Source of the DNA: the human T2T-CHM13v2.0 reference genome, Homo sapiens | Strand: one strand, 5' to 3' | Length of the DNA stretch: 64,000 bases | Assembly (NCBI RefSeq): GCF_009914755.1 | Contig: NC_060935.1 | Shown here: positions 1 through 51,269 of the stretch, piece by piece | Position numbering within the stretch: the stretch's first letter is position 1 | How the letters are laid out: the number at the start of each line of letters is the position of its first letter | Position numbers and translations under genes: made by a program | The notes under the pieces: generated by a model | Told to the model about the DNA's origin: nothing | The model's database searches: none | Seen by the model: the letters and a program-made list of their open reading frames with translations, nothing else

Positions 1-443
1 GTTCAATTCTGAGATAGGAGAAAAACCGCCCTGTGGTGGGAGGCAAGACATGTTGGCAGCAATGCTGCTTTATTATTCTTTACTCCACTGAGATGTTTGG
101 GTGGAGAGAAACATAAATCTGGACTATGTGCACATCCAGGCATAGTACCTTCCCTTGAACTTATTTGTGACACAGATTCCTTTGCTCACGTTTTCTTGTT
201 GACCTTCTCCTCACTATGACCCTGCCCTCCTACCGCATTCATCTTGCTGAGATAGTGAAAATGGTAATCAATAAATAATGAGGGAACTCAGAGAATGGTG
301 CAGGTGCGGGTCCTCTGTATGCTGAGGGCCGGTCCCCTGGGCCCACTTTTCTTTCTCTATACTTTGTCTCTGTGTCTTATTTCTTTTCTCAGTCCCTCCT
401 CCCACCTGATGAGAATTACCCACAGGTGTGGAGGGGCTGCCTC
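1..443 (+). mobile_element. HERV-K (HML-2) LTR5A/B-type LTR, 3' portion (cut by window start)
   Basis: LTR5-like blocks gagataggagaaaaaccgcc, AATAAA at 270-275 and the U5 end cccacaggtgtggaggggctg. No PBS or gag follows, so probably a solo LTR. Confidence 0.8.
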
Positions 444-2288
444 CGAATTAAGGAGCACAGCGGGCGCCTTGAGAGGGTCTTGGAGGGTCATTCGGGCGGT
501 GAGGTCTGGAGGAAAGCGGGGCGGGTTTCTTCCTCCTGAGGTACCAGGAAGATGGAGGCCACTGCAGACCGCGTGCCCCTACTAGTCCCTGCGGCCCTGG
601 GCGCTCGAACCTCGGGCCACAGCTAGGATGGGCGCGGTGGTTATTCCCTTTTCTGGAAGGAGGAAGGCTAGCAGCCTCTGGAGTTTTGATGGGGCCGACA
701 CCCCCTTAAGAGTCCAAACGAAGGCTCCTTATGAAGGCATTACTCTCATAGAGGTTCTTTGCCTTCCAGGTCTTTGACTGAGCTGGAGTCTATGATCTGG
801 ATCCTAGGAATCCCGATCTCACAACACTTTTGACCTCAAATTGAAGTGAACATCACCTTTTCCTGCTAGTAGTTGAGTAATTTGGTAATATTTATCCAAA
901 ACCTAAAAATCATGCACAATCATCTAGACCATCAAAACAGAGTAACATGGTAGTAGTAAGAGAAGTAACAATGGCAAAGGCGCCATACCATTTCCGGAGC
1001 GTTCGTGCCAGGTACATCTCCACGACCATCCCATAGGCTACCTCATTTAGGCTCATGCCCTCTATGAGACAGTATTAGCGGGGGCATGTTCTTTACATGC
1101 AACGACAGAACCAGGACAGAGGCAAACATAAAGACGCAGTGGCTTTCAGGGTCGAGCTCAGCACAGTGTTAATTCTGTCTATATTCTACTGCCCAAAGCC
1201 CAACATTGATGGGGTGGAGAGCAACTGCAAAGGCACCTGGCAACCAGTGTGTGTACAGGGAAGGGGGAAGATCTGAGAACAATTTTCCACACTCGGCCAC
1301 TGGTTCTTCCAATTCTCCAAGTACTTCAAACTAGATTAAACAGCAAACGTGTATTTAATATAGAATGTGTGTGCATTTTAATATATTGGATAGGCTATGA
1401 GACGTGACCTGGAAAAGCACTAGGCTTAGATACAATATTGCATTAAACTGCTCTGGGTCCATGAATGTGAGAATCATATTCATTCACCTCTGTTCCCCAA
1501 TGTCCAGTACAATACCTGGCACAAAGTAGGAATTAACACATCTCTTAAATGAATGAAACCATGTGGAAATGATATTATTTGTGTACCTCTTCTGTCTTCC
1601 CTATTTGAGGGCAGGGGTCAACATTTTACCCTTCATAGAATGTGGCACCGGATCTTGTAAATTGCCACCCGAAATTTATACCTTGAATAGATTATTGGAT
1701 TAATGAAAAAGCATTATACTAGGAAGAAGTAAGCCACTGTGCCTTTTTGCAGTTAGATCTGAGAGGCAGCCATCATTCAATAGAATAAGTTTGGCTTCTA
1801 GTTTCAGATGGGAATACAAATCCTCATAAGGATGTTTCTGCACAATTATTTGCTAAAGCTTTTTGTGAAATGGCGAAGATAATCTCACCTTCCCCACAGG
1901 GTTATTGAGAGTATTAAATGAAACAGACACATGTAAATGCCAAGCTCAGAGAGGAACTCAAAGCAGTACAGCAGCAGAGGTCATTTCCCTCTACACACTC
2001 CCTGCTGCTTCCGTGGGCAGACATAAGTGTTAGCCAGGCCAATGAAAGCAGTTAAGCAGCCAAGTTGGACTTTGCCAAGGGATCCCACACCACCACCACC
2101 CCTTTTAAAGGTTACTACAAAAGTAATCTTAAGAAAGTTTTATATATAATAACTGTGATATTTTTAACTTGATTGCACATCTTATCAAACAGGTATTGAT
2201 TTTCAGTGCTTTCAATGATTAAGAATAAGGGCAACAAAAAAGAAAATCTGTGTATAATATGATGAACCTGGAATTTTTGGTTTCATAC

Positions 2289-2339
2289 GTGTGTGTATAT
2301 ATATGTATATTTATGTATATATATATATATACACACACA
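2289..2339. repeat. Compound (TG)/(TA)/(CA) microsatellite
   Basis: Dinucleotide runs are directly visible. Confidence 0.9.
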
Positions 2340-3108
2340 GAGCAGTAATGGCCTTTAAAATAAATTCAAATAATGATAGAAAACAAAACATCTTCATGCA
2401 TGGTGTAATCTTTTTCCTACAAGAAGGCCTTGTTTTAAAAATGTGCATAAGGTTATGCTTTTGCATATTTTATATAATTTCTTAAAGGTATGTTATCAAA
2501 TTAATGTTTTCCAGCCAGGGTATCATATTTAAGGGTGATAGTAAATACTCCAAACACACCAGCTGTCACAAAATAATTATGCCTATGTCTATTATTGTTA
2601 TCTGTTTCTCATAAAATTAATCATAAATGATATGAATTATTGATTAAAATTAGTGTTTATAGACTATAAACCTATGAAAAGCCACAAGAGCAGTATTTTT
2701 ACATATTTTTCAAGAATTCAGATAACAGTGTAACCTTTGATTATAATAACAGAATTCATTTCTGTAGCAGAATTACAAATACAGCAATTATAAATATAAA
2801 TGATACTCCGTTAAGTCCATCCTGCTTTTAACTGTGCAACTATTTACAGCCAGAGGCAGGAATAAAAAAGGGTGTATACGTGTGGAAGAAAATTCACTCC
2901 ATGCTGTTTTTGACCTTGCGTGTAAAAAATAATTCATTACTATCAAAAGAGGCATTTTCCCAAATAAAAACAAACAAGGAAACAAAAACACAGGAAAAAA
3001 AAAAAAACTACTTACTGACCGTGACTTAAGTGTGGAGGAAAAAACCCTTTGCAGCTAATGTTGGCAAAAGTGTGTCCCCCGTAGATTTAGTCTAAGAATT
3101 AAGAAACT

Positions 3109-3374
3109 GGCCGGGCGCGGTGGTTCATACCTGTAATCCTAGCACTTTGGGAGGCCAAGGTAGGCGGGCTGCCTGAGTTCAGGAGTTTGAGACCAGCCTG
3201 GGGAACATGGCGAAATCCTGTAGTCCCAGCTACTCAAGTGGCTGAGGCATGAGAATCGCTTGAACCTGGGAGATGGAGGTTTCAGTAAGCCAAGATCATG
3301 CCACTTCACTCCAGCCTGGGTGACACAGTGAGACTCTGTCTCTAAAAAAAAAGAAAAAAGAAAAAAGAAAAAAA
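3109..3374 (+). mobile_element. Alu (S-type) with ~50 bp internal deletion of the central linker
   Basis: GGCCGGGCGCGGTGG start and A-rich tail; ggcgaaatcc joins directly to tgtagtcccagc at ~3217. Confidence 0.93.
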
Positions 3375-4136
3375 TAGCCTGTTTAATGAAGCATTGACAA
3401 GGAACCCAGGCTATGATTATAGAATAGGAGCTTCATAGTAATTGTAAGAACTCTGGTTCTTAGAAGACAAAAGTTAAATTTAATAAATAAGTTTAATGGC
3501 CAAAATATCTTTTTAAAACTTGTTTGTAGTCTTTAGAATGTGAATTTTATTTGGTTTAGATCTTACTAAGCTATATTTTGTAACTGAAATTAATACTTCA
3601 TTTTTGCCTGAAATTAGTAGAAAAAACAATAGCTAAAGTTTGCTACAGATAAATAAATGTCAATATTAGACTTTTTTTCTTTTGAAAAGGTAGGGAACTT
3701 TAATTAGTAATATAAGTTAAGAAAATGACAAAGATGTCAGATAATGAAGAAAAAATGTGACAGTAATCTTTCATCCAAAAAAAGGTTATGTTCCTATTGT
3801 CTAAAGCCAAAATATATTTCATTGCAAATATATATAAAGTTTAAGAATTGTTATTTTAGGCCCTTTCCGCAATAAGCCAACACATAACTTATCATGCCAT
3901 AAATGTTTTTAAAAGAAATATGATTAAAATTATACAAAACGACATAAAAATTTCAGAAAGAATATTGATAAATATCTTGGTACATAGTAGATTTAGTTGC
4001 ACAGATATTAGGTGGTACAAGTTTTATATCTTCTATAATAATAACTTTTTATTATCTCCTTGTGCACTAATATTTCAATATGTCAAAGTCATTTGAATAA
4101 CCTTTCTAGTAAATCTCAACTTCGTAGATTGAAAAC

Positions 4137-4760
4137 TTTTTTAAAAGCTTTATTTAAGTTTAGTGGTACATGTGCAGGTCTGCTATATAGATAAACTCAT
4201 GTCATGGGGGTTTGATGTACAGATTATTTCACCACCAAGGTATTAAGCCTAGTACCCATTAGTTGTTTTTCCCGATCCTCTCCCTTCTTCCATCCACCAC
4301 CCTCCGATAGGCCCCAGCGTCTGTTGTTCCCCTCTGCGTGTCCATGTGTTCTCATCATTTAGCTCCCACGTATAAGTGATAATATGCAGTATTTGATTTC
4401 TGTTCCTGCATTAGTTTGCCAAGAATAATGGCCTCTAGCTCCATCCATGTCCCTGTACAGGACATGATCTCATTATTTTTTATGGCTGTGTAGTATTCAA
4501 TGGTATACTGAGTTTTCTTTATCCAGCCTACCACTGATAGGCATTTAGGTTGATTCTTTGCTATTGTGAACAGCGCTGCAAGGAACATACGTGTTCGTGT
4601 GTCTTTATGAAAGAATGATTTATATTCCTTTGGGTACATACCCAGTCATGGGATTGCTGGGTTGAATGGTAGTTCTGTTTTTAAGTCTTTGAGGAATTGC
4701 CACACTGTTTTCCACAATGGTTGAACTAATTTACACTCCCACCTAGTATATAATCCTTCC
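4137..4760 (-). mobile_element. L1PA/L1PB-type 3' fragment (ORF2 C-terminus plus 3'UTR)
   Basis: ORF 4355-4639 (YPKEYKSF..TRMFLAALFTIAK..WMELEAIIL) is the L1 ORF2p C-terminus; a typical L1 3'UTR follows. Confidence 0.92.
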
Positions 4761-4875
4761 TTTTGGAAACAAATTTTATCAGTATATTCAATTCTGAACA
4801 CCCATGTTTTAGAAAATGTTAAGCCTATTGTCCTTTAATCACTATTTGCTTACACATTAAAATGTAAAACAGGCA

Positions 4876-5134
4876 AAAGAGAAAGAAGGAAGAAAGGAGG
4901 GAGGGAGGGAAGGAGAAAAGTGAGAAAGAAAGAAAGATAAAAGAAAAAAGAAAGAAGAAAGAAAGAAAGAGAAGAAATAAAGAGAAAAAAGAAAGGAAGA
5001 AAGGAAGGAAGGAATGAAGAAGAAAAGAAAAAAGAGAAAGAAAGAAGGAAAGAAAAAGAAAAAAAGAAAGAGAAAGAAAGAAAGAAAGAGAAAGAAAGAA
5101 AGAGAGAGAGAGAGAGAAAGAGAGAGAAAAGAAA
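4876..5134. repeat. (GAAA/GGAA/GA)n polypurine tract
   Basis: ~260 bp of almost pure purine repeat. Confidence 0.95.
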
Positions 5135-5269
5135 ATTTTCTCCAGATTAGAATTATTGGCTGCTATTGTTTGGATGCTGGGTACTAGCTGTGATTACCCT
5201 TTGTGAATGTAGGAATGCACAGATTCCAAAAGTGAGTCTCATAGAAAAAGTCAGCATTCAAATATGTTT

Positions 5270-5901
5270 TAAGGTTACTCTATCCAAACCCCAAAGAACC
5301 CACAGAAGATGAAGCAGTAATTTTAGCTTCTCTTGGTGTATTGTACATGCATTTAAGGCCAGTTCCTTCCTTCAAATTCCCATGTGTTTTGTAGTTACCA
5401 ACACACCTTTCAACCCTATCTGTTTATATACATCATATAGTCCTCTGTCAATTGCATAAAAGTTGTCCCCTTTGTGACTGTAATCGCCTTTTCCAATACA
5501 CATCTACTCAGAATGCAGGTCCTTAAACAGCAGGCTGCCTTGAAAACCCTCTCCAATCTTCTTCGATCATCAGCTTTGAGATGCATATTCCTAGAGCCCA
5601 TATCATCTTCTTCATCACTATCATAAACGTCTCCACATATTGATGAACGTTTGGAGAATCGATTTATGACAAGGGAGTTTACTCTTCCTGCATCCGCGGC
5701 TTCTTCGTGATTTTGTCCTAGTCACCGGGCCTATCCCACCTGCTGGGGATGCCGCCCCCTCGGAAGTGCCTGAAATCTCCCCACTTACCCAACTAGCCTC
5801 AGCGCCTCCTGTGTGCTGCAGCAGATGGCGCGCTGCAGACCCCAGCCTGGTGCCTCCGCGACTCCTCCCCAACCATGATTTACAGGCGGGGACAGCCACA
5901 T
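5270..5901 (-). pseudogene. Processed pseudogene of PRKAR2B (PKA regulatory subunit RII-beta), coding remnant
   Basis: Minus-strand translation gives collinear blocks GGGIPSR, ADAGRVNSLVINRFSKRSSICGDVYDSDEEDDMGSRNMHLKADDRRRL, LLFKDLHSE* (TAG 5504-5506), [37 protein letters not shown] and LDRVT. These match RII-beta [104 protein letters not shown] and LDRVT. No introns; frameshifts and a stop are present. The boundary above ~5760 is weaker. Confidence 0.88.
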
Positions 5902-6460
5902 TCCTGCGCCCCAACTTCCACCTCCGCTTCCTGCGCGCGCGAGACTCAAGCTGCCACAGTGGCTCTGCCGCCAGCGTCCCAGCTCCTCCCACACCCGAGT
6001 TTTTATTTCCTGCTCCCTCTCCAGCCCGGCCCAGGCCAGCCTACCGGCGACTAGGATGCTTTCGCTTTCGCTCTCGCTTTCCAATACTCGGGACTGGGGA
6101 AACCGGGAGAATAGAAGCAGGCAAGGACCGCCGTGGGCACGGGGTCAGTGAGACAGGGTCCTGCTCGCGGCGTCAAGGAGGAGCGCTGTGGGTGGGTAGG
6201 GTAGGCGCGCCCCCTCGGCCTTGCCTTTCCAACCACTCTTTTTTGCACGCCAACAGGTGTCCCCAGCGCAGCCAATCGGCTTCCGAAGTAGGTGAGTTGC
6301 TGCCTGAAGAGAAAAGACAAACTCCAGTATCTTTCATTCCATTGGCCAGACGCGCCATTCCCCAAGTGAGTTCTGTTCTCCAACCAAAGTGCTGGATTCC
6401 AAGGGACTGGAAGGGAAAGTCCCTAAAAATCACGAGTTCAGGCGTCTGAGACTTGGTGGG
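5690..6460. promoter_or_regulatory. FAM111A: CpG island, upstream bidirectional promoter of FAM111A / FAM111A-DT
   Basis: High CpG/GC content; ETS core CGGAAGTG 5761-5768; CTCF-like GCAGCAGATGGCGC 5818-5831; tandem IRF-type hexamers 6058-6081; CCAAT boxes; + strand donors AG|GTGAGT at 6291 and 6478. Confidence 0.8.
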
Positions 6461-6670
6461 AACGGACCTTCCTCTTAGGTGAGTTACTCTTTGGTTCTGG
6501 GGCTGACCTGGAGTTTTGCCAGGATTCATTGGCCGCAGCAGGATGCTGGTGGGGACAGGGTAAATAAAATCTGCACTCCTGCGGGCTTTTATTGTTGAAA
6601 GGGGCACTGACGCTCTCCCTGGAAACTTAAAAAGAACAGCCAAGTGAACGGATGTGTCTTTCTTTTGCAG

Positions 6671-6869
6671 TGCCCAAGCCTGTTCTAATTTTTAAAAACT
6701 GATGTCTATTAAGACCCAATGTTAACTTTATGAAAATGGTTCCTAAGGAGATTCACATCTCTGTGTCCGAATTCTGTGTGCAGCAAACATCATCTCAAGT
6801 GCGTTTTCCCAACTACGCTTCTTTCCAGGATAAAATACTCTAAGTGACAAATGTTGAGTACATTATCAG
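6671..6869 (+). other. FAM111A: Candidate FAM111A non-coding 5' exon
   Basis: Acceptor tttcttttgcag ending 6670; donor CAG|GTATGT at 6869/6870. Confidence 0.6.
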
Positions 6870-6882
6870 GTATGTTCACTAT

Positions 6883-7700
6883 TGTGAGAACTGAAGCCAT
6901 CTACACTCACATAGCTTGCCAACTACATTAACCTGACTTCTTATTCCATTATTTTCATCAACATACATTTACTATTTCAAGAAACTTTTGCCAGGGACCG
7001 GAAAGTTGCAAATATCTTTATTGCTTAATCCAGTATCTTCTTCAAAGATCCAACCACTCTTCAATGGAAAACATCAAAGAACAGTTTACATTCTAAGACT
7101 TTGAACCTTTACCTCAAAATCCTAGCCTTGTTTTATCTACCAATCCTAAACTTTTACCCGTAGCTGACTCAATTCTAACCAATTCCCCTCATTAAATATT
7201 AGACTTACAATGGGACTTCAAAATCTCAATACATATAGCCCAAACTTGCTCTTCCCTCTCTGAGACACCACTTAAATTCTGTCAAGTTATTGTTCTCCAT
7301 TACCTAAGTGAGCAAGAAACTTAGCTTTGTCTTATCAACAGGTTGCTTTGATATTACTGGGAGCCAACATTTGACATTCTTGGAGGCTCCAGCAAGACCT
7401 AATCAACCTCCCAACCCTCAACTCAGAATCAGTGTGTGCCCTGAAGTCCCTTCAACCTTCTTGAGGCTCTCCCTGATCTCAAAGGTGGAGAAAGTAGATC
7501 TTGCATCAGGTTGAACTCCAGTTTCTTTTTGCTCAGTTTTTCAAGCGCTGAGTTTATTTTGTCCCTAGGCATAAAGAAATCTTTCTAGGAACCCCTTTGG
7601 TTATGGGACCAGATTTTTAAAAGCTTTTTAGGCTTGGTGAAAAATCTGCCTTATCACTAGCAACACTACGACTTGTCTCTGTTCTTGTTTTTTGTTGTAC
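6883..7700 (+). mobile_element. Old ERV1-class LTR (MER34-like, ~6883-7377) plus start of internal leader
   Basis: TG...CA ends; U5-like aaacttagctttgtcttatcaacagg; followed by ttcttggaggctccagcaaga, resembling an ERV1 PBS/leader start. Confidence 0.5.
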
Positions 7701-7859
7701 TCGTGTAAAAGAAAAGTTCAAGGGAAGAGAACAGGCTCAAGTCTACTTCTCACGCTGGCTCTGGGGATTAGGAAATTCAGAAAGTTTTGTTTCAGACTGG
7801 CAGTGCTGTCTGATATAAACACAGCGTCAAGTACTGCACGCTGTAGCTACCTGAGGTTT

Positions 7860-8300
7860 AGGCCGGAAGAGGCACGGCTGATTTAAAAGTGAAAGAAAGT
7901 AACCAATTGGTTCGCAGACAACCTTTTCCCAAAAGGCGGGCGATTCAAACCCCTAGCCCCACCTGCTCCGTTTCCCGCCCAGCTGGAGCTCTGGAGCCTT
8001 TGCTTCCTCAAATACGAGCGGGAACTGCGTTGAGCGCTGGATTCCAGGCCGAGTGCTGGCGAGGCGCGCAGTGAGTGAGCACACAGGGCGCTGGGGTGCT
8101 CCGCGGGGCGCGGTCACGGGCGCGGCCGCGGCGGGCTCGAGTCCCGGCTGGGAGGAGAAGGAGCTGGGTGTCAGGAAGCCGGGGACTGACAGCGCCACCC
8201 ATCTGGGGAGCCGGGAGGACACAGGTTTTATTTTGGTAGTGCTGCAAGTCCCCTTGTGTGCTGGGGGGAGCGGGGCGGCGTGGTAGGATTGGAAGAGGCT
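7860..8300 (+). promoter_or_regulatory. FAM111A: Second CpG-island promoter and alternative first exon of FAM111A (donor at 8070/8071)
   Basis: IRF-type AAAAGTGAAAG 7885-7895; palindromic AACCAATTGGTT 7901-7912; inverted CHR TTCAAA 7944-7949; E2F TTTCCCGC 7971-7978; donor GCA|GTGAGT. Confidence 0.8.
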
Positions 8301-34739: not shown

Positions 34740-36170
34740 GCCACTGGCCGGCACACGACACTTTAGGCCAGCAGGGGGCGGGTAAGCTCCAGGGCACTCG
34801 CCCGAGCAGCAGGGGGCGTGTCTTCTGCTTCCTTGACGGACAGCTAAGGATGCGGGAGAGGATGAGGTAATAGGAGCCGGGGCAAGGAAGGAGTTGGGGT
34901 GCGCGCGCGTGTGTGTGCGACTGTGAGTGTGCCAGTGCGTGCGCAAGCCCCGAGACAATGCGTGTCTCCAGTTCGCGCTGCGGACACTGATCATGCTGCA
35001 TTAAGGAAAAAAAAAGAGAGAGAGAGAGAAAATTACATTTGGGGGAAGGAGGCTGCAAAGTTGCGGCTGGGCGACAGTGGTGGTCCCGGGGCCGTGTCAT
35101 GGCGGGTCGCTTCTCTGCATCAAGGAACCAGGGAAACACACGCGGGCGCGGGTTTGCCTTAGCGCCCTGCTTGGGAGGGGTGGTTCATTCTGGAAGGAAC
35201 TGAGCAGAGCCACAGGCAGGGGGAGCTCTCCCAGCGGCGGGGACTGCAATTCGTGCGGCGAAGGGGTGGGGAGGGAGGGAGAGAGGGGAGGGGACCAGAG
35301 CGTGCCATTCCGAGCGCGGCCGTGCGGCGAGATCCCACCCCGGCGTCTGCAGAGGCCGAGGCGCAACTGGTGCGAGGGCTGGGTCCTTGCCTCGCCGTCA
35401 GCCCCAGCTCGCGGCCGCCGGGGCTCGGGCCGCGCGCCCGCCGAGTGGCTTTTGCAAGGCGGGGGCCTGTTTGCAGAGAGCCGGGCATTTGCATGAAGCG
35501 ACTCGACCCCACAGAGCAGCGGCAGCAGCAGCGGACCCCGGCGGCGGCGGCGGCGCGCGGTCCCAGCCAGGCGGCCCCGGTGTCCCGGCCCCGGTGGATG
35601 CACGGCTGGGGAGGAGCCCATGGGCCGGAGCTGAGGCTGCCCGGGGCGGCGGGGCGCGGGGCAGGGGGCGCGGTCGAGGCCCGGAGGCGGCGGCGCAGGA
35701 GGAAGCGGAGGAGGTCGGGCGCTCGGGGCCCGGGAGGCGGGCCGCGCAGCGCCGCAGCCCCGGGCTCGCCATGCTCCTGGCCTCGGCCGTGGTGGTCTGG
35801 GAATGGCTGAACGAGCACGGCCGCTGGCGTCCCTACAGCCCAGCGGTGAGCCACCACATCGAGGCGGTGGTCCGCGCCGGCCCCCGCGCGGGGGGCAGCG
35901 TGGTGCTGGGCCAGGTGGACAGCCGTCTCGCGCCCTACATCATCGACCTGCAGTCCATGAACCAGTTCCGCCAAGACACGGGTGAGCCAGCCGCCCCTGA
36001 CCCCGCCCCGCCTGCTCCCACCTTCCCAACCTGCCAAGGTACCTCCCTCCCTGTGAACCCACCTTGGCCACCTAGTCGGCACTTCTGTGCAGCAGTGTCA
36101 CCAAGAGGTGGTGGTGGGAGGCGATTCACTCCGCTGAATCCTCGCAGGATCCTCCCTCCCCCTTAAACAT
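34740..36170 (+). promoter_or_regulatory. DTX4: DTX4 CpG-island promoter; candidate upstream alternative first exon with donor at 34866/34867
   Basis: Very high GC/CpG; two CTCF-like motifs at 34768-34780 and 34806-34818; donor GAG|GTAATA. Confidence 0.85.
35771..35981 (+). CDS. DTX4: DTX4 coding exon 1 (WWE1: MLLASAVVVWEWLNEHGRWRPY...)
   Basis: gccATG at 35771; WWE motif; donor CGG|GTGAGC, 211 nt, phase 1. Confidence 0.96.
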
Positions 36171-49100: not shown

Positions 49101-51269
49101 AACTTAGATATGGTCAACAGAACGCAGAGAGGCTGTGCGGCTCTCCCAAAGGCAAAGCAGGTCAGTGCTGAGCGGGGCTAAAACAAAGACTCCCTGACTC
49201 CAGTGCAGAGCTCCTTCCATTACACGGTTCTGGATTTCACAAGCAAATATACCCCTTCTCCCCAGACCCCTCCTTCCCAGAGCCCAGTGACAAGCCTACC
49301 CGCCATGTCATTCCTCTCCTCAAGTGGCAGGGACATGTATCTCTCCCACCTGTTGAACCCATAGTCTTCTTGTGTGTCCCAGGTCCACATGCGGGCCCTT
49401 CCCTCCCTCTCTCCACATCTTGCCCCTGAGTTCTTGAGCTGCCTGAAATGTGTGGTGTTCTGGGGATTGGATTATTTCCTGGTTGGCCAGATTGGGTGTG
49501 GAAACCTGCCAGTCCAGTTTATGGGAACAAAGGTGGCTTTTGTCACCCAGATCACAGCTACTTATCAGCTGGAGTGGGGGCTCTGAAGATGGCGAGGGAG
49601 AAGGTAGGTGCAGGTCTGGGTTCTGAGTGCTGCCCCCTGCTGGGGAGCTGGGAGCAGGACACAGGAAGCCGGGTCTTTTCCCCAAACCTCTCCAGAAAGA
49701 GCTGGGCGAGGAGAATCGGCCATAAGTGGAGGACTCAGGGCTTGGGTGGCCATTTTTTTCTCAGATATTGGTGGGAAGTTGTCAGCCAGTTTCCGTAGCG
49801 TCTTCTAACCCAAGACCCTCACAGTTTTACAGATGGGGAAATTGAGGCTCAGAAAAGTTAACTACCTTAGCGAGAAACTCCTGGCAGGGATGGGACTTGC
49901 ACCTGATTTTCCTGACTGCCCATCCACCATACCATGCCTGGCCCTGGGGAGCAGGTCACAGAGTCCAGAAACAAGTCCATTCTTCTTTTCTTGGCCCAGT
50001 GGCCCTTGTTTTGTATTCAGCTTTCTCCTCCATCCTCCCATCCTGGTTTGATTTATCCTGGGGACAGTTTCAGAAGAAAAGCGGCTTTGGGTGGCCTGGT
50101 GAGACACAAACATTCCCATTCCCACATCTGTTCTTTCACATCCATCTCCCAGCATTGGTGCACATGTCATCATCCCTGGGAAGGGACAGAGCCCCAGGCA
50201 GGCTCAAAGTAGGTTAGAGCTGGGGAAGAACCTCCCTTACAGGCATGAGGGGCAGAGACAGACCCCACTGCTTGGCATGGAGGTCCCGTTGCAGCTTTCC
50301 CCATTCCTAGTGGTGGGTTTATTCATTACGCTCTCTGAGTTTCTGGTCTATGTTTGCAGTGTGGGATGTTATAAGGATTACGTAAACACAAGAGCCTGGC
50401 ATAGTAAATGGGCTCTGGTGCCAGATTTTCTGGCTTAGCTGTGTGATCTTACCAAGTTTCCTTAACCTCTCTGTGCCTCAATGTAGTTGTCTCTAAAATG
50501 GTGTTAATGACTGCACCTCTTGCATAGGATGTTGGAAGGATCAGACAGGTTTATATGCTGTGAGCAGTTGGAGCCACTGTTGGGGGGAGGTGAGCTCTGT
50601 GCATGTTGGTAACTGTAACATGTGAGTGAAGAAGGGCCATGAGCCATGTGTTCACTGCTGACCCCCAGCATCGGGAATAGCAAACAACACAAAGTAGGGC
50701 TCAATAAACACTTTTTGGATGGATAAATCAATACATAAATATTCTTTTTTTCCTCCTCTTGCTTTCCCAGCACCATCCTGCCCCCACAGCAGAGCTGTTG
50801 GCTTTGCAGGCTGTCTGCCTCCTGGAGTCATCTGTGACCGGGTCCATTAGCCTCTCCAAGCCCAGCTGCAGGAGTGTGGGTGACAGAGAGGATGGCGCAA
50901 GACCCAGACCCATGTGTCCCATATTTTCCAAGTCAGCGCTGTGGGAGGGCCGCGCCTTTCCCAGGCAGCTGTGCCATCTCCTCTCCAGCCTGGCTGGAGT
51001 TGCTGGGGAGAAGGACAGAAAGGGGAGGAGGCTTTGCCTAATATTTATATATGTCTCAGGGAAAAGGAGAAGTGACAGCTGTTCTAGCAGTGGTTCCAAA
51101 TGTTAGGCTGGGGATTGCTACATCTGCAGCTTCTCAGGAGCTTTGGGAAATGCAGCTTCTCGTGCTCCACAGGTGGATATTCTGGTCTGGATCTGGGACC
51201 TTGTCCTTCTAAAAACATCTTAGGTGACTCTTTTGTACACCCTGGTTTGAACTTGCTTCTTTGTTTTTT

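What the first reader, a model, noticed from the sequence alone, without database searches (positions are those of the whole stretch)
5690..6100. FAM111A upstream CpG-island promoter appears partly built from the retrocopy's GC-rich first exon
The left half of the island overlaps sequence matching PRKAR2B exon 1 (GGGIPSR at ~5740-5759, RHQ/LQH-like remnants at ~5810-5860, possible relic ATG at 5901-5899). CpGs survive here while the rest of the copy is CpG-depleted. ETS (5761-5768) and CTCF-like (5818-5831) motifs lie inside the former coding sequence. Inference: a retroposed mRNA donated or extended a bidirectional promoter for a replication-fork/antiviral protease gene.
Basis: partly seen in the sequence, partly recalled or inferred. 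Interest (0 to 1): 0.8.

Follow-up and report, generated by a model that had tools for sequence, protein, structure and literature searches.

The report
PRKAR2B pseudogene relic flanks FAM111A promoter
The decayed front end of an ancient copied PRKAR2B messenger RNA forms the outer edge of the FAM111A promoter's CpG island and part of the first exon of the neighbouring non-coding RNA, but the two transcription start sites lie outside it, so it probably landed beside the promoter and did not create it.

Summary
A PRKAR2B processed pseudogene lies on the minus strand, head-to-head with FAM111A. Homology to parental exon 1 runs to about 5868, past NCBI's limit of 5804 (shuffle tests 0/500 and 1/500; natural GC-matched windows 1/392). 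Beyond 5868, homology to the parental start codon or upstream sequence is at chance level (231/500, 97/500). The "relic ATG" is therefore unsupported.

The copy is also longer than annotated: 3'UTR pieces run down to about 2146.

The relic (5690-5868) is the shore of the island. It holds 11 of 43 CpGs and about 29% of a loosely drawn island. Both annotated start sites (5982 minus, 6030 plus) lie in sequence with no PRKAR2B homology.

Only 4 of 25 parental CpGs survive at aligned positions. The rest of the copy is CpG-poor because the parent is.

New here: 80 nt of FAM111A-DT exon 1 and its GTAAGT splice donor are relic-derived.

Best reading (0.6): the retrocopy landed beside an existing promoter and was absorbed into its unmethylated, transcribed flank. 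"Donated the promoter" is not excluded (about 0.13). No other mammalian genome was available. This is a known kind of arrangement and of modest interest.

The parts
5690..5868 (-). Relic of PRKAR2B exon 1 (parental codons ~18-102), with frameshifts and deletions. It forms the distal shore of the CpG island.
   Evidence: 139/179 aligned columns identical, 83 gap columns. (0/500 and 1/500 shuffles). (1/392 natural GC-matched windows). (tblastx hit of 5726-5758 to parental exon 1).
5258..5689 (-). Relic of PRKAR2B coding exons 2-5, intronless. This is most of the NCBI-annotated pseudogene LOC100422399.
   Evidence: E 6.5e-12 to RII-beta chains, residues 90-148. (5513-5590 to L024 4277-4358; 5258-5420 to L026 2390-2536). 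(those parental stretches are coding exons).
2146..4106 (-). Collinear pieces derived from the PRKAR2B 3'UTR (4033-4106, 3803-3935, 2146-2504). They are interrupted by an Alu (3102-3382) and other sequence, and are not part of the annotated pseudogene.
   Evidence: matches to L027 5874-7484. (parental stop codon ends at L027 5624, so these are 3'UTR).
5869..6029 (.). Core of the bidirectional promoter, including the FAM111A-DT start (5982, minus) and reaching the FAM111A start (6030, plus). No detectable PRKAR2B homology.
   Evidence: Start sites come from the hub's RefSeq table. (231/500, 97/500). (single copy in the genome). (the published ChIP amplicon is 5878-6005).
5789..5982 (-). FAM111A-DT exon 1. 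Its last 80 nt (5868-5789) are relic-derived, in sense orientation.
   Evidence: Exon coordinates come from the hub's table. Relic extent.
5783..5788 (-). GTAAGT splice donor of FAM111A-DT exon 1. It lies inside the relic and aligns to parental GCAGGACCT (codons G55-W58).
   Evidence: Sequence; alignment; exon end from the hub's table.
5801..6400 (.). CpG island 1 by 200-nt windows (GC>=0.5, o/e>=0.6). A looser island of 5690-6300 has 43 CpGs and o/e 0.72.
6030..6120 (+). FAM111A exon 1 (non-coding), carrying a tandem IRF-like motif at 6058-6069.
   Evidence: Hub's table.
5818..5831 (+). CTCF-like motif GCAGCAGATGGCGC (1 mismatch to a recalled consensus) inside the relic. It is absent from the aligned parental sequence.
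   Evidence: 7 matches against 0.74 expected in the window.
5760..5767 (+). ETS-like TCGGAAGT inside the relic. It is absent from the aligned parental sequence, and such matches occur at the chance rate.
   Evidence: 27 matches against 25.5 expected.
3131..3341 (-). FAM111A-DT exon 2: an exonised antisense Alu that sits inside the retrocopy's 3'UTR-derived part. AG at 3343-3342, GT at 3130-3129.
   Evidence: hub's table.

Best explanation
An old, heavily decayed processed pseudogene of PRKAR2B lies on the minus strand from about 5868 to about 2146, head-to-head with FAM111A. It is probably of early placental age.

The most likely history is that it inserted next to a CpG-island promoter FAM111A already had. 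Its GC- and CpG-rich exon-1 end came to lie about 160 bp upstream of the FAM111A start site, inside the promoter's unmethylated and divergently transcribed flank.

That position has kept the relic island-like in composition. It also made the relic part of the upstream antisense transcript. FAM111A-DT starts 114 nt upstream of the relic, reads 80 nt into it in sense orientation, and splices out at a GTAAGT donor that evolved within former PRKAR2B codons 55-58. The rest of the copy is intronic, apart from an exonised Alu.

Shown here:
- the homology and its limits;
- the composition of copy and parent;
- the overlap with the annotated exon and splice donor.

Inferred:
- the order of events (promoter first, retrocopy second);
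- protection from methylation;
- any regulatory contribution of the relic to FAM111A.
For: - Extent of homology: significant to 5868 and at chance beyond it. Both start sites and 32 of 43 CpGs lie outside the relic (and the hub's table).
- Processed origin: parental exons spread over about 117 kb of chr7 (L003/L016, L024, L026, L027) are collinear within 3.7 kb here, with a seamless exon 1/2 junction.
- Age: K2P is 0.229 over 519 aligned sites in 5 best HSPs, with 44 gap columns. An Alu is inserted inside the copy.
- Older gene: FAM111 orthologues exist well outside placentals, and the A/B duplication is placed after the marsupial split (PMC9798293, passages). The gene therefore predates the copy.
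- Paralogue: FAM111B has a ~1-kb CpG-island promoter at its start site with no PRKAR2B relic. A distal CpG-island promoter is thus plausibly ancestral to the family.
- Power of the negative result: with divergence calibrated to the exon-1 relic, a full-length 5'UTR relic would score at or under the observed 18 in only 2.7-8.7% of 300 simulations.
- Known pattern: retrocopies head-to-head within 2 kb of a gene are described as using the gene's pre-existing bidirectional promoter. Inherited parental promoters account for only about 3% of expressed retrocopies (PMC4772013, passages).
Against: - No orthologous sequence from any other mammal could be examined, so the order of events is inferred, not shown.
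- The parental 5'UTR, if it was retroposed, would map to roughly 5869-6100, exactly where both start sites lie. Its length of ~244 nt is my own estimate from recalled gene coordinates. The simulation does not exclude a relic there that diverged faster than the coding part (28.7% of runs at or under the observed score at substitution level 0.42; 56% at 0.46).
- FAM111A has a second, denser CpG island (7801-8300) at alternative first exons. The gene would therefore not have been promoterless without island 1, which leaves room for island 1 being a later gain.
- The FAM111A and FAM111B promoters share no detectable DNA homology, so common ancestry of the two islands is assumed, not shown.
- Genome-wide searches do not link the exon-1 relic to PRKAR2B. 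The assignment of 5761-5868 rests on targeted alignment and collinearity.
- No poly(A) tail or target-site duplication was found, so the true 5' end of the insertion is unknown.
Confidence: 0.6

Rival explanations
1. The retroposed PRKAR2B mRNA brought about 550 nt of very CpG-rich 5'UTR and exon 1. This nucleated a new unmethylated CpG island, from which divergent transcription arose. The result was a new upstream promoter for FAM111A (start 6030) and FAM111A-DT (start 5982). The 5'UTR part has since diverged beyond recognition.
For: - The parental upstream and exon-1 sequence is extremely CpG-rich (GC 0.83 with 39 CpGs in 244 nt; GC 0.72 with 26 CpGs in 257 nt).
- The relic continues without a break in composition into the island.
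- The expected position of a full-length 5'UTR coincides with both start sites.
- FAM111A has another CpG-island promoter 2 kb downstream carrying recalled-consensus E2F, CHR and CCAAT motifs. Island 1 could therefore be an added promoter.
- That CpG-rich DNA can by itself set up promoter-like chromatin is my recollection of the literature and was not read here.
Against: - There is no homology beyond 5868 (231/500 and 97/500). Calibrated simulations make this unlikely for an equally diverged relic (2.7-8.7%).
- 6100-6400, half of the strict island, lies beyond any plausible 5'UTR.
- FAM111B has a relic-free CpG-island promoter.
- Inherited parental promoters are rare, about 3% (PMC4772013).
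Confidence: 0.13
2. The similarity of 5761-5868 to PRKAR2B codons 18-60 is a chance match between GC-rich sequences. The retrocopy ends at about 5760-5804, as annotated, and contributes almost nothing to the island.
For: - Genome-wide DNA, protein and Pfam RIIa searches do not recover this stretch.
- The alignment needs many gaps, and alternative registers exist.
- One shuffle of 500 and one natural window of 392 reach the observed score.
Against: - The match is on the right strand, in the right order, and directly adjoins the secure part of the copy.
- z = 4.5 against shuffles. The reversed-query and opposite-strand controls scored 12 and 13 against the observed 22.
- The single natural window that equals it lies at another RIIa-like locus (L012).
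- NCBI's own annotation already reaches 5804.
Confidence: 0.1
3. The order of events is as in the best explanation, but the relic is more than a passenger. Motifs that arose in it after insertion (the CTCF-like site at 5818-5831, the ETS-like site at 5760-5767) now contribute measurably to FAM111A or FAM111A-DT regulation.
For: - The CTCF-like match is one of 7 in the window against 0.74 expected.
- RefSeq lists an experimentally derived enhancer element at 5798-6247 that overlaps the relic (hub's table).
- FAM111A-DT, whose exon 1 and splice donor use the relic, is reported to activate FAM111A (PMC10475779, passages).
Against: - ETS-like matches occur at the chance rate.
- No binding or deletion data were available here.
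- The published ChIP/ChIRP amplicon (5878-6005) lies outside the relic.
- The reported m6A sites at transcript positions 501, 779 and 881 lie beyond exons 1-2 (194 + 211 nt).
Confidence: 0.25

Closest known systems
Retrocopies head-to-head with a gene that use its bidirectional CpG-island promoter (Carelli et al. 2016, PMC4772013; their example is HTR7P1 beside HEBP1)
   Same: The copy is head-to-head and its detectable 5' end lies 162 nt from the neighbour's start site. It is transcribed in sense from the divergent start site of a CpG-island promoter.
   Different: The copy here is a dead, fragmented pseudogene. Only 80 nt of it are exonic, and the transcript is a spliced lncRNA that leaves the copy through a donor evolved inside it. 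The copy's own GC-rich end has become part of the island's flank.
Retrocopies that inherit a promoter from the parental transcript (Carelli et al. 2016, about 3% of expressed retrocopies)
   Same: CpG-rich sequence from the parental 5' end was carried along and remains island-like.
   Different: The start sites here lie outside the detectable parental sequence. No homology to the parental 5'UTR or promoter was found.
Imprinted retrogenes with their own CpG-island promoters inside host genes (Mcts2/H13, Nap1l5/Herc3; PMC1796624 and PMC3467052, seen as search listing and abstracts only)
   Same: A CpG island associated with a retroposed copy influences transcription of a neighbouring or host gene.
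   Different: Those are intact, expressed retrogenes lying within introns. Here the copy is dead and upstream, and no imprinting or methylation data were examined.
Pseudogene- and Alu-derived exons of lncRNAs; promoter upstream divergent transcripts
   Same: FAM111A-DT exon 1 is partly pseudogene-derived and exon 2 is an exonised antisense Alu. The transcript is divergent from a CpG-island promoter.
   Different: Nothing unusual. The only particular point is that the first splice donor was created inside former coding sequence of PRKAR2B.

Membership tests
Processed pseudogene (retrocopy) of PRKAR2B | Collinear homology to several parental exons with the introns absent | tested here: met
   Exon 1, the L024 exon, the L026 exon and the 3'UTR in L027 span about 117 kb on chr7 and are collinear within 5868-2146 here. 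The exon 1/2 junction is seamless.
Processed pseudogene (retrocopy) of PRKAR2B | Located away from the parental locus | tested here: met
   The parent is on C7:108.36-108.48 Mb and the copy is on C11:59.09 Mb.
Processed pseudogene (retrocopy) of PRKAR2B | Poly(A) tail at the 3' end | tested here: not met
   Homology fades near 2146, just past the parental AATAAA at L027 7442. No A-run is visible there. Decay over roughly 100 Myr is a sufficient explanation.
Processed pseudogene (retrocopy) of PRKAR2B | Flanking target-site duplication | tested here: inconclusive
   The best direct match between the two flanks is a 9-mer (2083-2091 and 5987-5995), reached by 65 of 300 shuffles.
Processed pseudogene (retrocopy) of PRKAR2B | Disabled reading frame | tested here: met
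   The remnants lie in at least three frames and are separated by stop codons. 83 gap columns occur in the exon-1 alignment. No match was found to the coding sequence after the L026 exon (about the last 40% of the protein).
CpG island (Gardiner-Garden and Frommer criteria, recalled: >=200 bp, GC>=0.5, o/e>=0.6) | Composition thresholds over >=200 bp | tested here: met
   5801-6400 passes in every 200-nt window. The relic alone (5690-5870) has GC 0.65 and o/e 0.62, but the window 5700-5899 has o/e 0.54.
Bidirectional promoter | Two divergent start sites less than 1 kb apart | not testable with these tools
   RefSeq models in the hub's table give 5982 (minus) and 6030 (plus). No CAGE or other start-site data were available. 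On the plus strand GC skew turns from negative to about zero or slightly positive near 6000, which is consistent with divergent transcription.
Retrocopy using a neighbour's pre-existing bidirectional promoter (Carelli category) | Head-to-head orientation within 2 kb of a protein-coding gene | tested here: met
   The relic's 5' end (5868, minus strand) lies 162 nt from the FAM111A start at 6030 (hub's table).
Retrocopy using a neighbour's pre-existing bidirectional promoter (Carelli category) | The promoter predates the insertion (present in outgroups without the copy) | not testable with these tools
   No other mammalian genome is held. Indirect evidence only: the relic-free CpG-island promoter at FAM111B and the older age of the gene family (PMC9798293).
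Retrocopy-inherited (parent-derived) promoter | The start site lies in sequence homologous to the parental transcript | tested here: not met
   5871-5960 and 5871-6100 against the parental start and upstream sequence scored at chance (231/500 and 97/500). Power is limited.

The most novel reading that the evidence does not exclude
After the FAM111A/B duplication in an early placental ancestor, a full-length PRKAR2B mRNA retroposed about 2 kb upstream of the ancestral cell-cycle promoter of FAM111A (the 7801-8300 island). Its roughly 550 nt of CpG-dense 5'UTR and exon 1 seeded a new unmethylated island. That island became today's main FAM111A start site and gave rise to the regulatory lncRNA FAM111A-DT. 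Only the coding part of the donated sequence is still recognisable.
Probability: 0.13. Interest if true: 0.6.

Novelty: new member of a known kind. Interest (0 to 1): 0.3.

Why it matters
FAM111A is a replication-fork protease, an antiviral restriction factor and a disease gene. FAM111A-DT is reported to activate it. It is useful for anyone dissecting this promoter to know that part of the lncRNA's first exon, its first splice donor and the promoter's distal flank come from a dead PRKAR2B copy. The pseudogene is also about 3.7 kb long, not the annotated 544 bp.

If the rarer reading were true, and a retroposed CpG-rich 5' end created the main promoter of a neighbouring gene, it would be a clean example of promoter birth from an mRNA copy. 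The present evidence leans against that reading, and the arrangement otherwise belongs to a described class.

Tried and rejected
- **Genome-wide searches.** Four searches failed to connect the exon-1 relic with PRKAR2B: Pfam RIIa, the relic DNA, parental exon-1 DNA and parental exon-1 protein. Only targeted alignment does so. No second PRKAR2B exon-1 copy exists in the genome to serve as a CpG-decay control.
- **Target-site duplication.** The search gave a chance-level result. By eye, a TAAA-started stretch at the 5' junction weakly resembles one near 2107. I did not test it and give it no weight.
- **Poly(A) tail.** None was found.
- **FAM111B comparison.** There is no DNA homology between the FAM111A promoter or island 2 and the FAM111B region (best E 0.21 and 1.3). 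Only the coding exon aligns. The boundary of the duplication and any common origin of the promoters could therefore not be established.
- **First power simulation.** It was too optimistic: simulated scores of 66 against the observed 32. I recalibrated it.
- **tblastx for the missing C-terminal coding part of the copy.** It found nothing beyond the known pieces.
- **Rfam scan of 1-8000.** No match.
- **Bacterial promoter/terminator scan.** It does not apply to a human promoter and is ignored.

Full report
**What is there**

The window is T2T chr11:59,086,001-59,150,000 and the assembly could be searched. The parental gene PRKAR2B was located on contig 7. Its exon 1 lies in locus L003, with the ATG at L003 1480 and the exon ending at 1786. 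It encodes [24 protein letters not shown]...GGGTPSKG...AGAFN. I fetched the remaining 120 kb of the gene as L016-L027.

The copy is on the minus strand of the window and is collinear with the parental mRNA:

| Window (minus strand) | Parental match |
|---|---|
| 5868-5690 | exon 1, L003 1530-1786 |
| 5721-5416 | a frame reading HEEAADAGRVNSLVINRFSKRSSICGDVYDSDEEDD..., matching solved RII-beta chains at residues 90-148 (E 6.5e-12) across the exon 1/2 junction |
| 5590-5513 | coding exon, L024 4277-4358 |
| 5420-5258 | coding exon, L026 2390-2536 |
| 4106-4033, 3935-3803, 2504-2146 | 3'UTR, L027 5874-7484 |

- The parental stop codon ends at L027 5624, so the last group is 3'UTR.
- The processed pseudogene therefore spans about 3.7 kb (5868 to about 2146), not the 544 bp (5261-5804) of the RefSeq row.
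- It is interrupted by an Alu (3102-3382), another repeat (about 4136-4745) and a purine-rich simple repeat (4851-5144).
- No match was found to the coding sequence after the L026 exon, about the last 40% of the protein.
- No poly(A) tail or target-site duplication is recognisable.

**How far the exon-1 homology goes**

| Window segment | Compared with | Observed score | Null mean | Shuffles reaching it |
|---|---|---|---|---|
| 5690-5760 | parental 1660-1786 | 19.0 | 10.3 | 0 of 500 |
| 5761-5870 | parental 1480-1674 | 22.0 | 12.4 | 1 of 500 |
| 5871-5960 | parental 1200-1540 | 11.5 | 11.4 | 231 of 500 |
| 5871-6100 | parental 1000-1540 | 18.0 | 16.0 | 97 of 500 |

All four rows come and use dinucleotide shuffles.

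- For 5761-5870, the reversed-query and opposite-strand controls scored 12 and 13.
- Against 392 natural 110-nt windows of matched GC content, 1 reached a score of 22. These windows came from the rest of the window and from 14 other loci, on both strands. The one that matched lies at another RIIa-like locus.
- The homology therefore reaches about 5868 (parental codon ~18).
- The proposed relic ATG at 5901-5899 has no support.
- Genome-wide searches do not recover the exon-1 relic. The claim for 5761-5868 rests on strand, order, adjacency and the targeted tests.

I checked the power of the negative result by simulation. I calibrated the substitution level (about 0.34-0.38) so that simulated exon-1 relics score like the real one (32). 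A relic of the parental first 50 coding nt plus about 244 nt upstream would then stay at or under the observed 18 in 2.7-8.7% of 300 runs. At substitution levels of 0.42 and 0.46 the figures are 28.7% and 56%. The 244-nt 5'UTR length is my estimate from recalled gene coordinates.

**Composition**

| Region | Length | GC | CpGs | o/e |
|---|---|---|---|---|
| Loose island, 5690-6300 | 611 nt | 0.63 | 43 | 0.72 |
| Relic, 5690-5870 | 181 nt | 0.65 | 11 | 0.62 |
| Parental exon 1 (1530-1786) | 257 nt | 0.72 | 26 | 0.79 |
| Matched parental exons and 3'UTR | | 0.31-0.45 | 0-4 | |

- By 200-nt windows the island is 5801-6400, and the window 5700-5899 fails with o/e 0.54.
- The copy's contrast between its GC-rich 5' end and the rest is inherited from the mRNA. 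It is not a sign of differential decay.
- The alignment shows 25 parental CpGs. Of these, 12 fall in deletions, 4 are kept, 3 are now TG or CA, and 6 have other fates. 7 of the relic's 11 CpGs do not align to parental CpGs.
- A CpG density of 0.62-0.63 at K2P >= 0.23 from the parent suggests long-term protection from methylation. K2P was measured over 519 sites in the 5 best HSPs, which biases it low. Protection is expected whichever way the island arose.

**Relation to transcripts**

- The annotated FAM111A-DT start (5982) lies 114 nt upstream of the relic's end on the minus strand. The FAM111A start (6030) is 48 nt further on, on the other strand.
- The last 80 nt of FAM111A-DT exon 1 (5982-5789) are relic, in sense orientation.
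- The exon ends at a consensus GTAAGT donor (5788-5783). This aligns to parental GCAGGACCT, codons 55-58.
- Exon 2 (3341-3131) is a classic antisense-Alu exon inside the copy's 3'UTR part, with AG at 3343-3342 and GT at 3130-3129.
- Pu et al. report that FAM111A-DT binds and activates the FAM111A promoter (PMC10475779, passages). Their promoter amplicon maps to 5878-6005, just outside the relic.

**Motifs**

- The ETS-like site at 5760-5767 is a 1-mismatch match. Such matches occur at the chance rate: 27 in the window against 25.5 expected.
- The CTCF-like site at 5818-5831 is a 1-mismatch match to a recalled consensus. Such matches are rarer than chance would give: 7 against 0.74 expected.
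- Neither motif is present in the aligned parental sequence, so both arose after insertion. Binding was not testable.

**Which came first**

For a pre-existing promoter:
- The start sites and 32 of 43 CpGs lie outside the relic.
- 5871-6500 is single-copy in the genome.
- 6100-6400 lies beyond any plausible 5'UTR.
- FAM111 genes are far older than the copy, and the A/B duplication is placed after the marsupial split (PMC9798293, passages).
- FAM111B has a ~1-kb CpG island at its start site (L028 5501-6500) and no PRKAR2B relic within the 36 kb searched.
- Head-to-head retrocopies using a neighbour's bidirectional promoter are a described class. Parent-inherited promoters are rare, about 3% (PMC4772013, passages).

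Against, or leaving it open:
- No other mammalian genome was available.
- The FAM111A and FAM111B promoters share no DNA homology. Only the coding exon aligns.
- FAM111A has a second, denser island at 7801-8300, at alternative first exons. It carries recalled-consensus E2F, CHR, CCAAT and ETS motifs. Island 1 could therefore be a later addition.
- My rough age estimate places the insertion in the same broad interval as the duplication. That estimate compares K2P >= 0.23 with a recalled ~0.17 substitutions per site in the human lineage since the human-mouse split.

**Verdict**

- Retrocopy landed beside an existing promoter: 0.6.
- Retrocopy donated the promoter: 0.13.
- The 5761-5868 match is chance: 0.1.

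A search for papers holding PRKAR2B, pseudogene and FAM111A found none. The specific link to FAM111A-DT exon 1 does not appear in the searched library, but the kind of arrangement is known.

Noticed in passing
window 2146-4106 (minus): The PRKAR2B processed pseudogene continues into 3'UTR-derived pieces (4033-4106, 3803-3935, 2146-2504), well beyond the annotated 5261-5804. The whole copy is about 3.7 kb and lies mostly inside intron 1 of FAM111A-DT.
   Followed up: yes
window 7801-8300: A second, denser CpG island (GC up to 0.71, o/e up to 0.96) sits at the alternative FAM111A first exons (7983/8036). It carries recalled-consensus motifs typical of cell-cycle promoters: TTTCCCGCC (7971-7979), TTCAAA/CHR (7944-7949), CCAATTGG (7903-7910), CCGGAAGA (7863-7870) and an IRF-like AAGTGAAAGAAAGT (about 7886-7900). 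This may be where the reported DREAM binding occurs. It has no homology to the FAM111B region or to island 1.
   Followed up: partly
window 6058-6085: A tandem IRF-E-like repeat lies in FAM111A exon 1, 28 nt or more downstream of the start site. On the minus strand it reads GAAAGCGAAAGC and continues GAGAGCGAAAGG-like. It is the only exact match to the recalled GAAASYGAAASY pattern in 64 kb (0.13 expected). This fits published IRF2-dependent FAM111A expression (PMC8691090, title and abstract).
   Followed up: partly
window 3131-3341 (minus): FAM111A-DT exon 2 is an exonised antisense Alu. A poly-T tract provides the polypyrimidine tract and AG, and the donor is GT at 3130-3129.
   Followed up: yes
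window 4851-5144: About 300 nt of pure purine (GA/GAAA-type) simple repeat on the plus strand (GC skew up to 1.0) lies between the coding and 3'UTR parts of the copy. It could form non-B DNA. It stands where the missing part of the PRKAR2B coding sequence (about its last 40%) would be.
   Followed up: no
window 34768-34781 (+) and 49630-49643 (-): Two exact matches to the recalled CTCF core consensus lie in convergent orientation, bracketing the 5' part of DTX4.
   Followed up: no
window 3635-3772; L031 3115-3247 (window -2885 to -2753): A 77%-identical repeat pair in the same orientation, one copy inside the retrocopy's 3'UTR region and one near the far end of FAM111A-DT. The repeat family was not identified.
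   Followed up: no
L031 5201-5400 (window -799 to -600); L028 1501-1800: Small CpG-rich patches lie outside the window: one inside the FAM111A-DT span and one about 4.7 kb upstream of the FAM111B start. Neither was examined.
   Followed up: no
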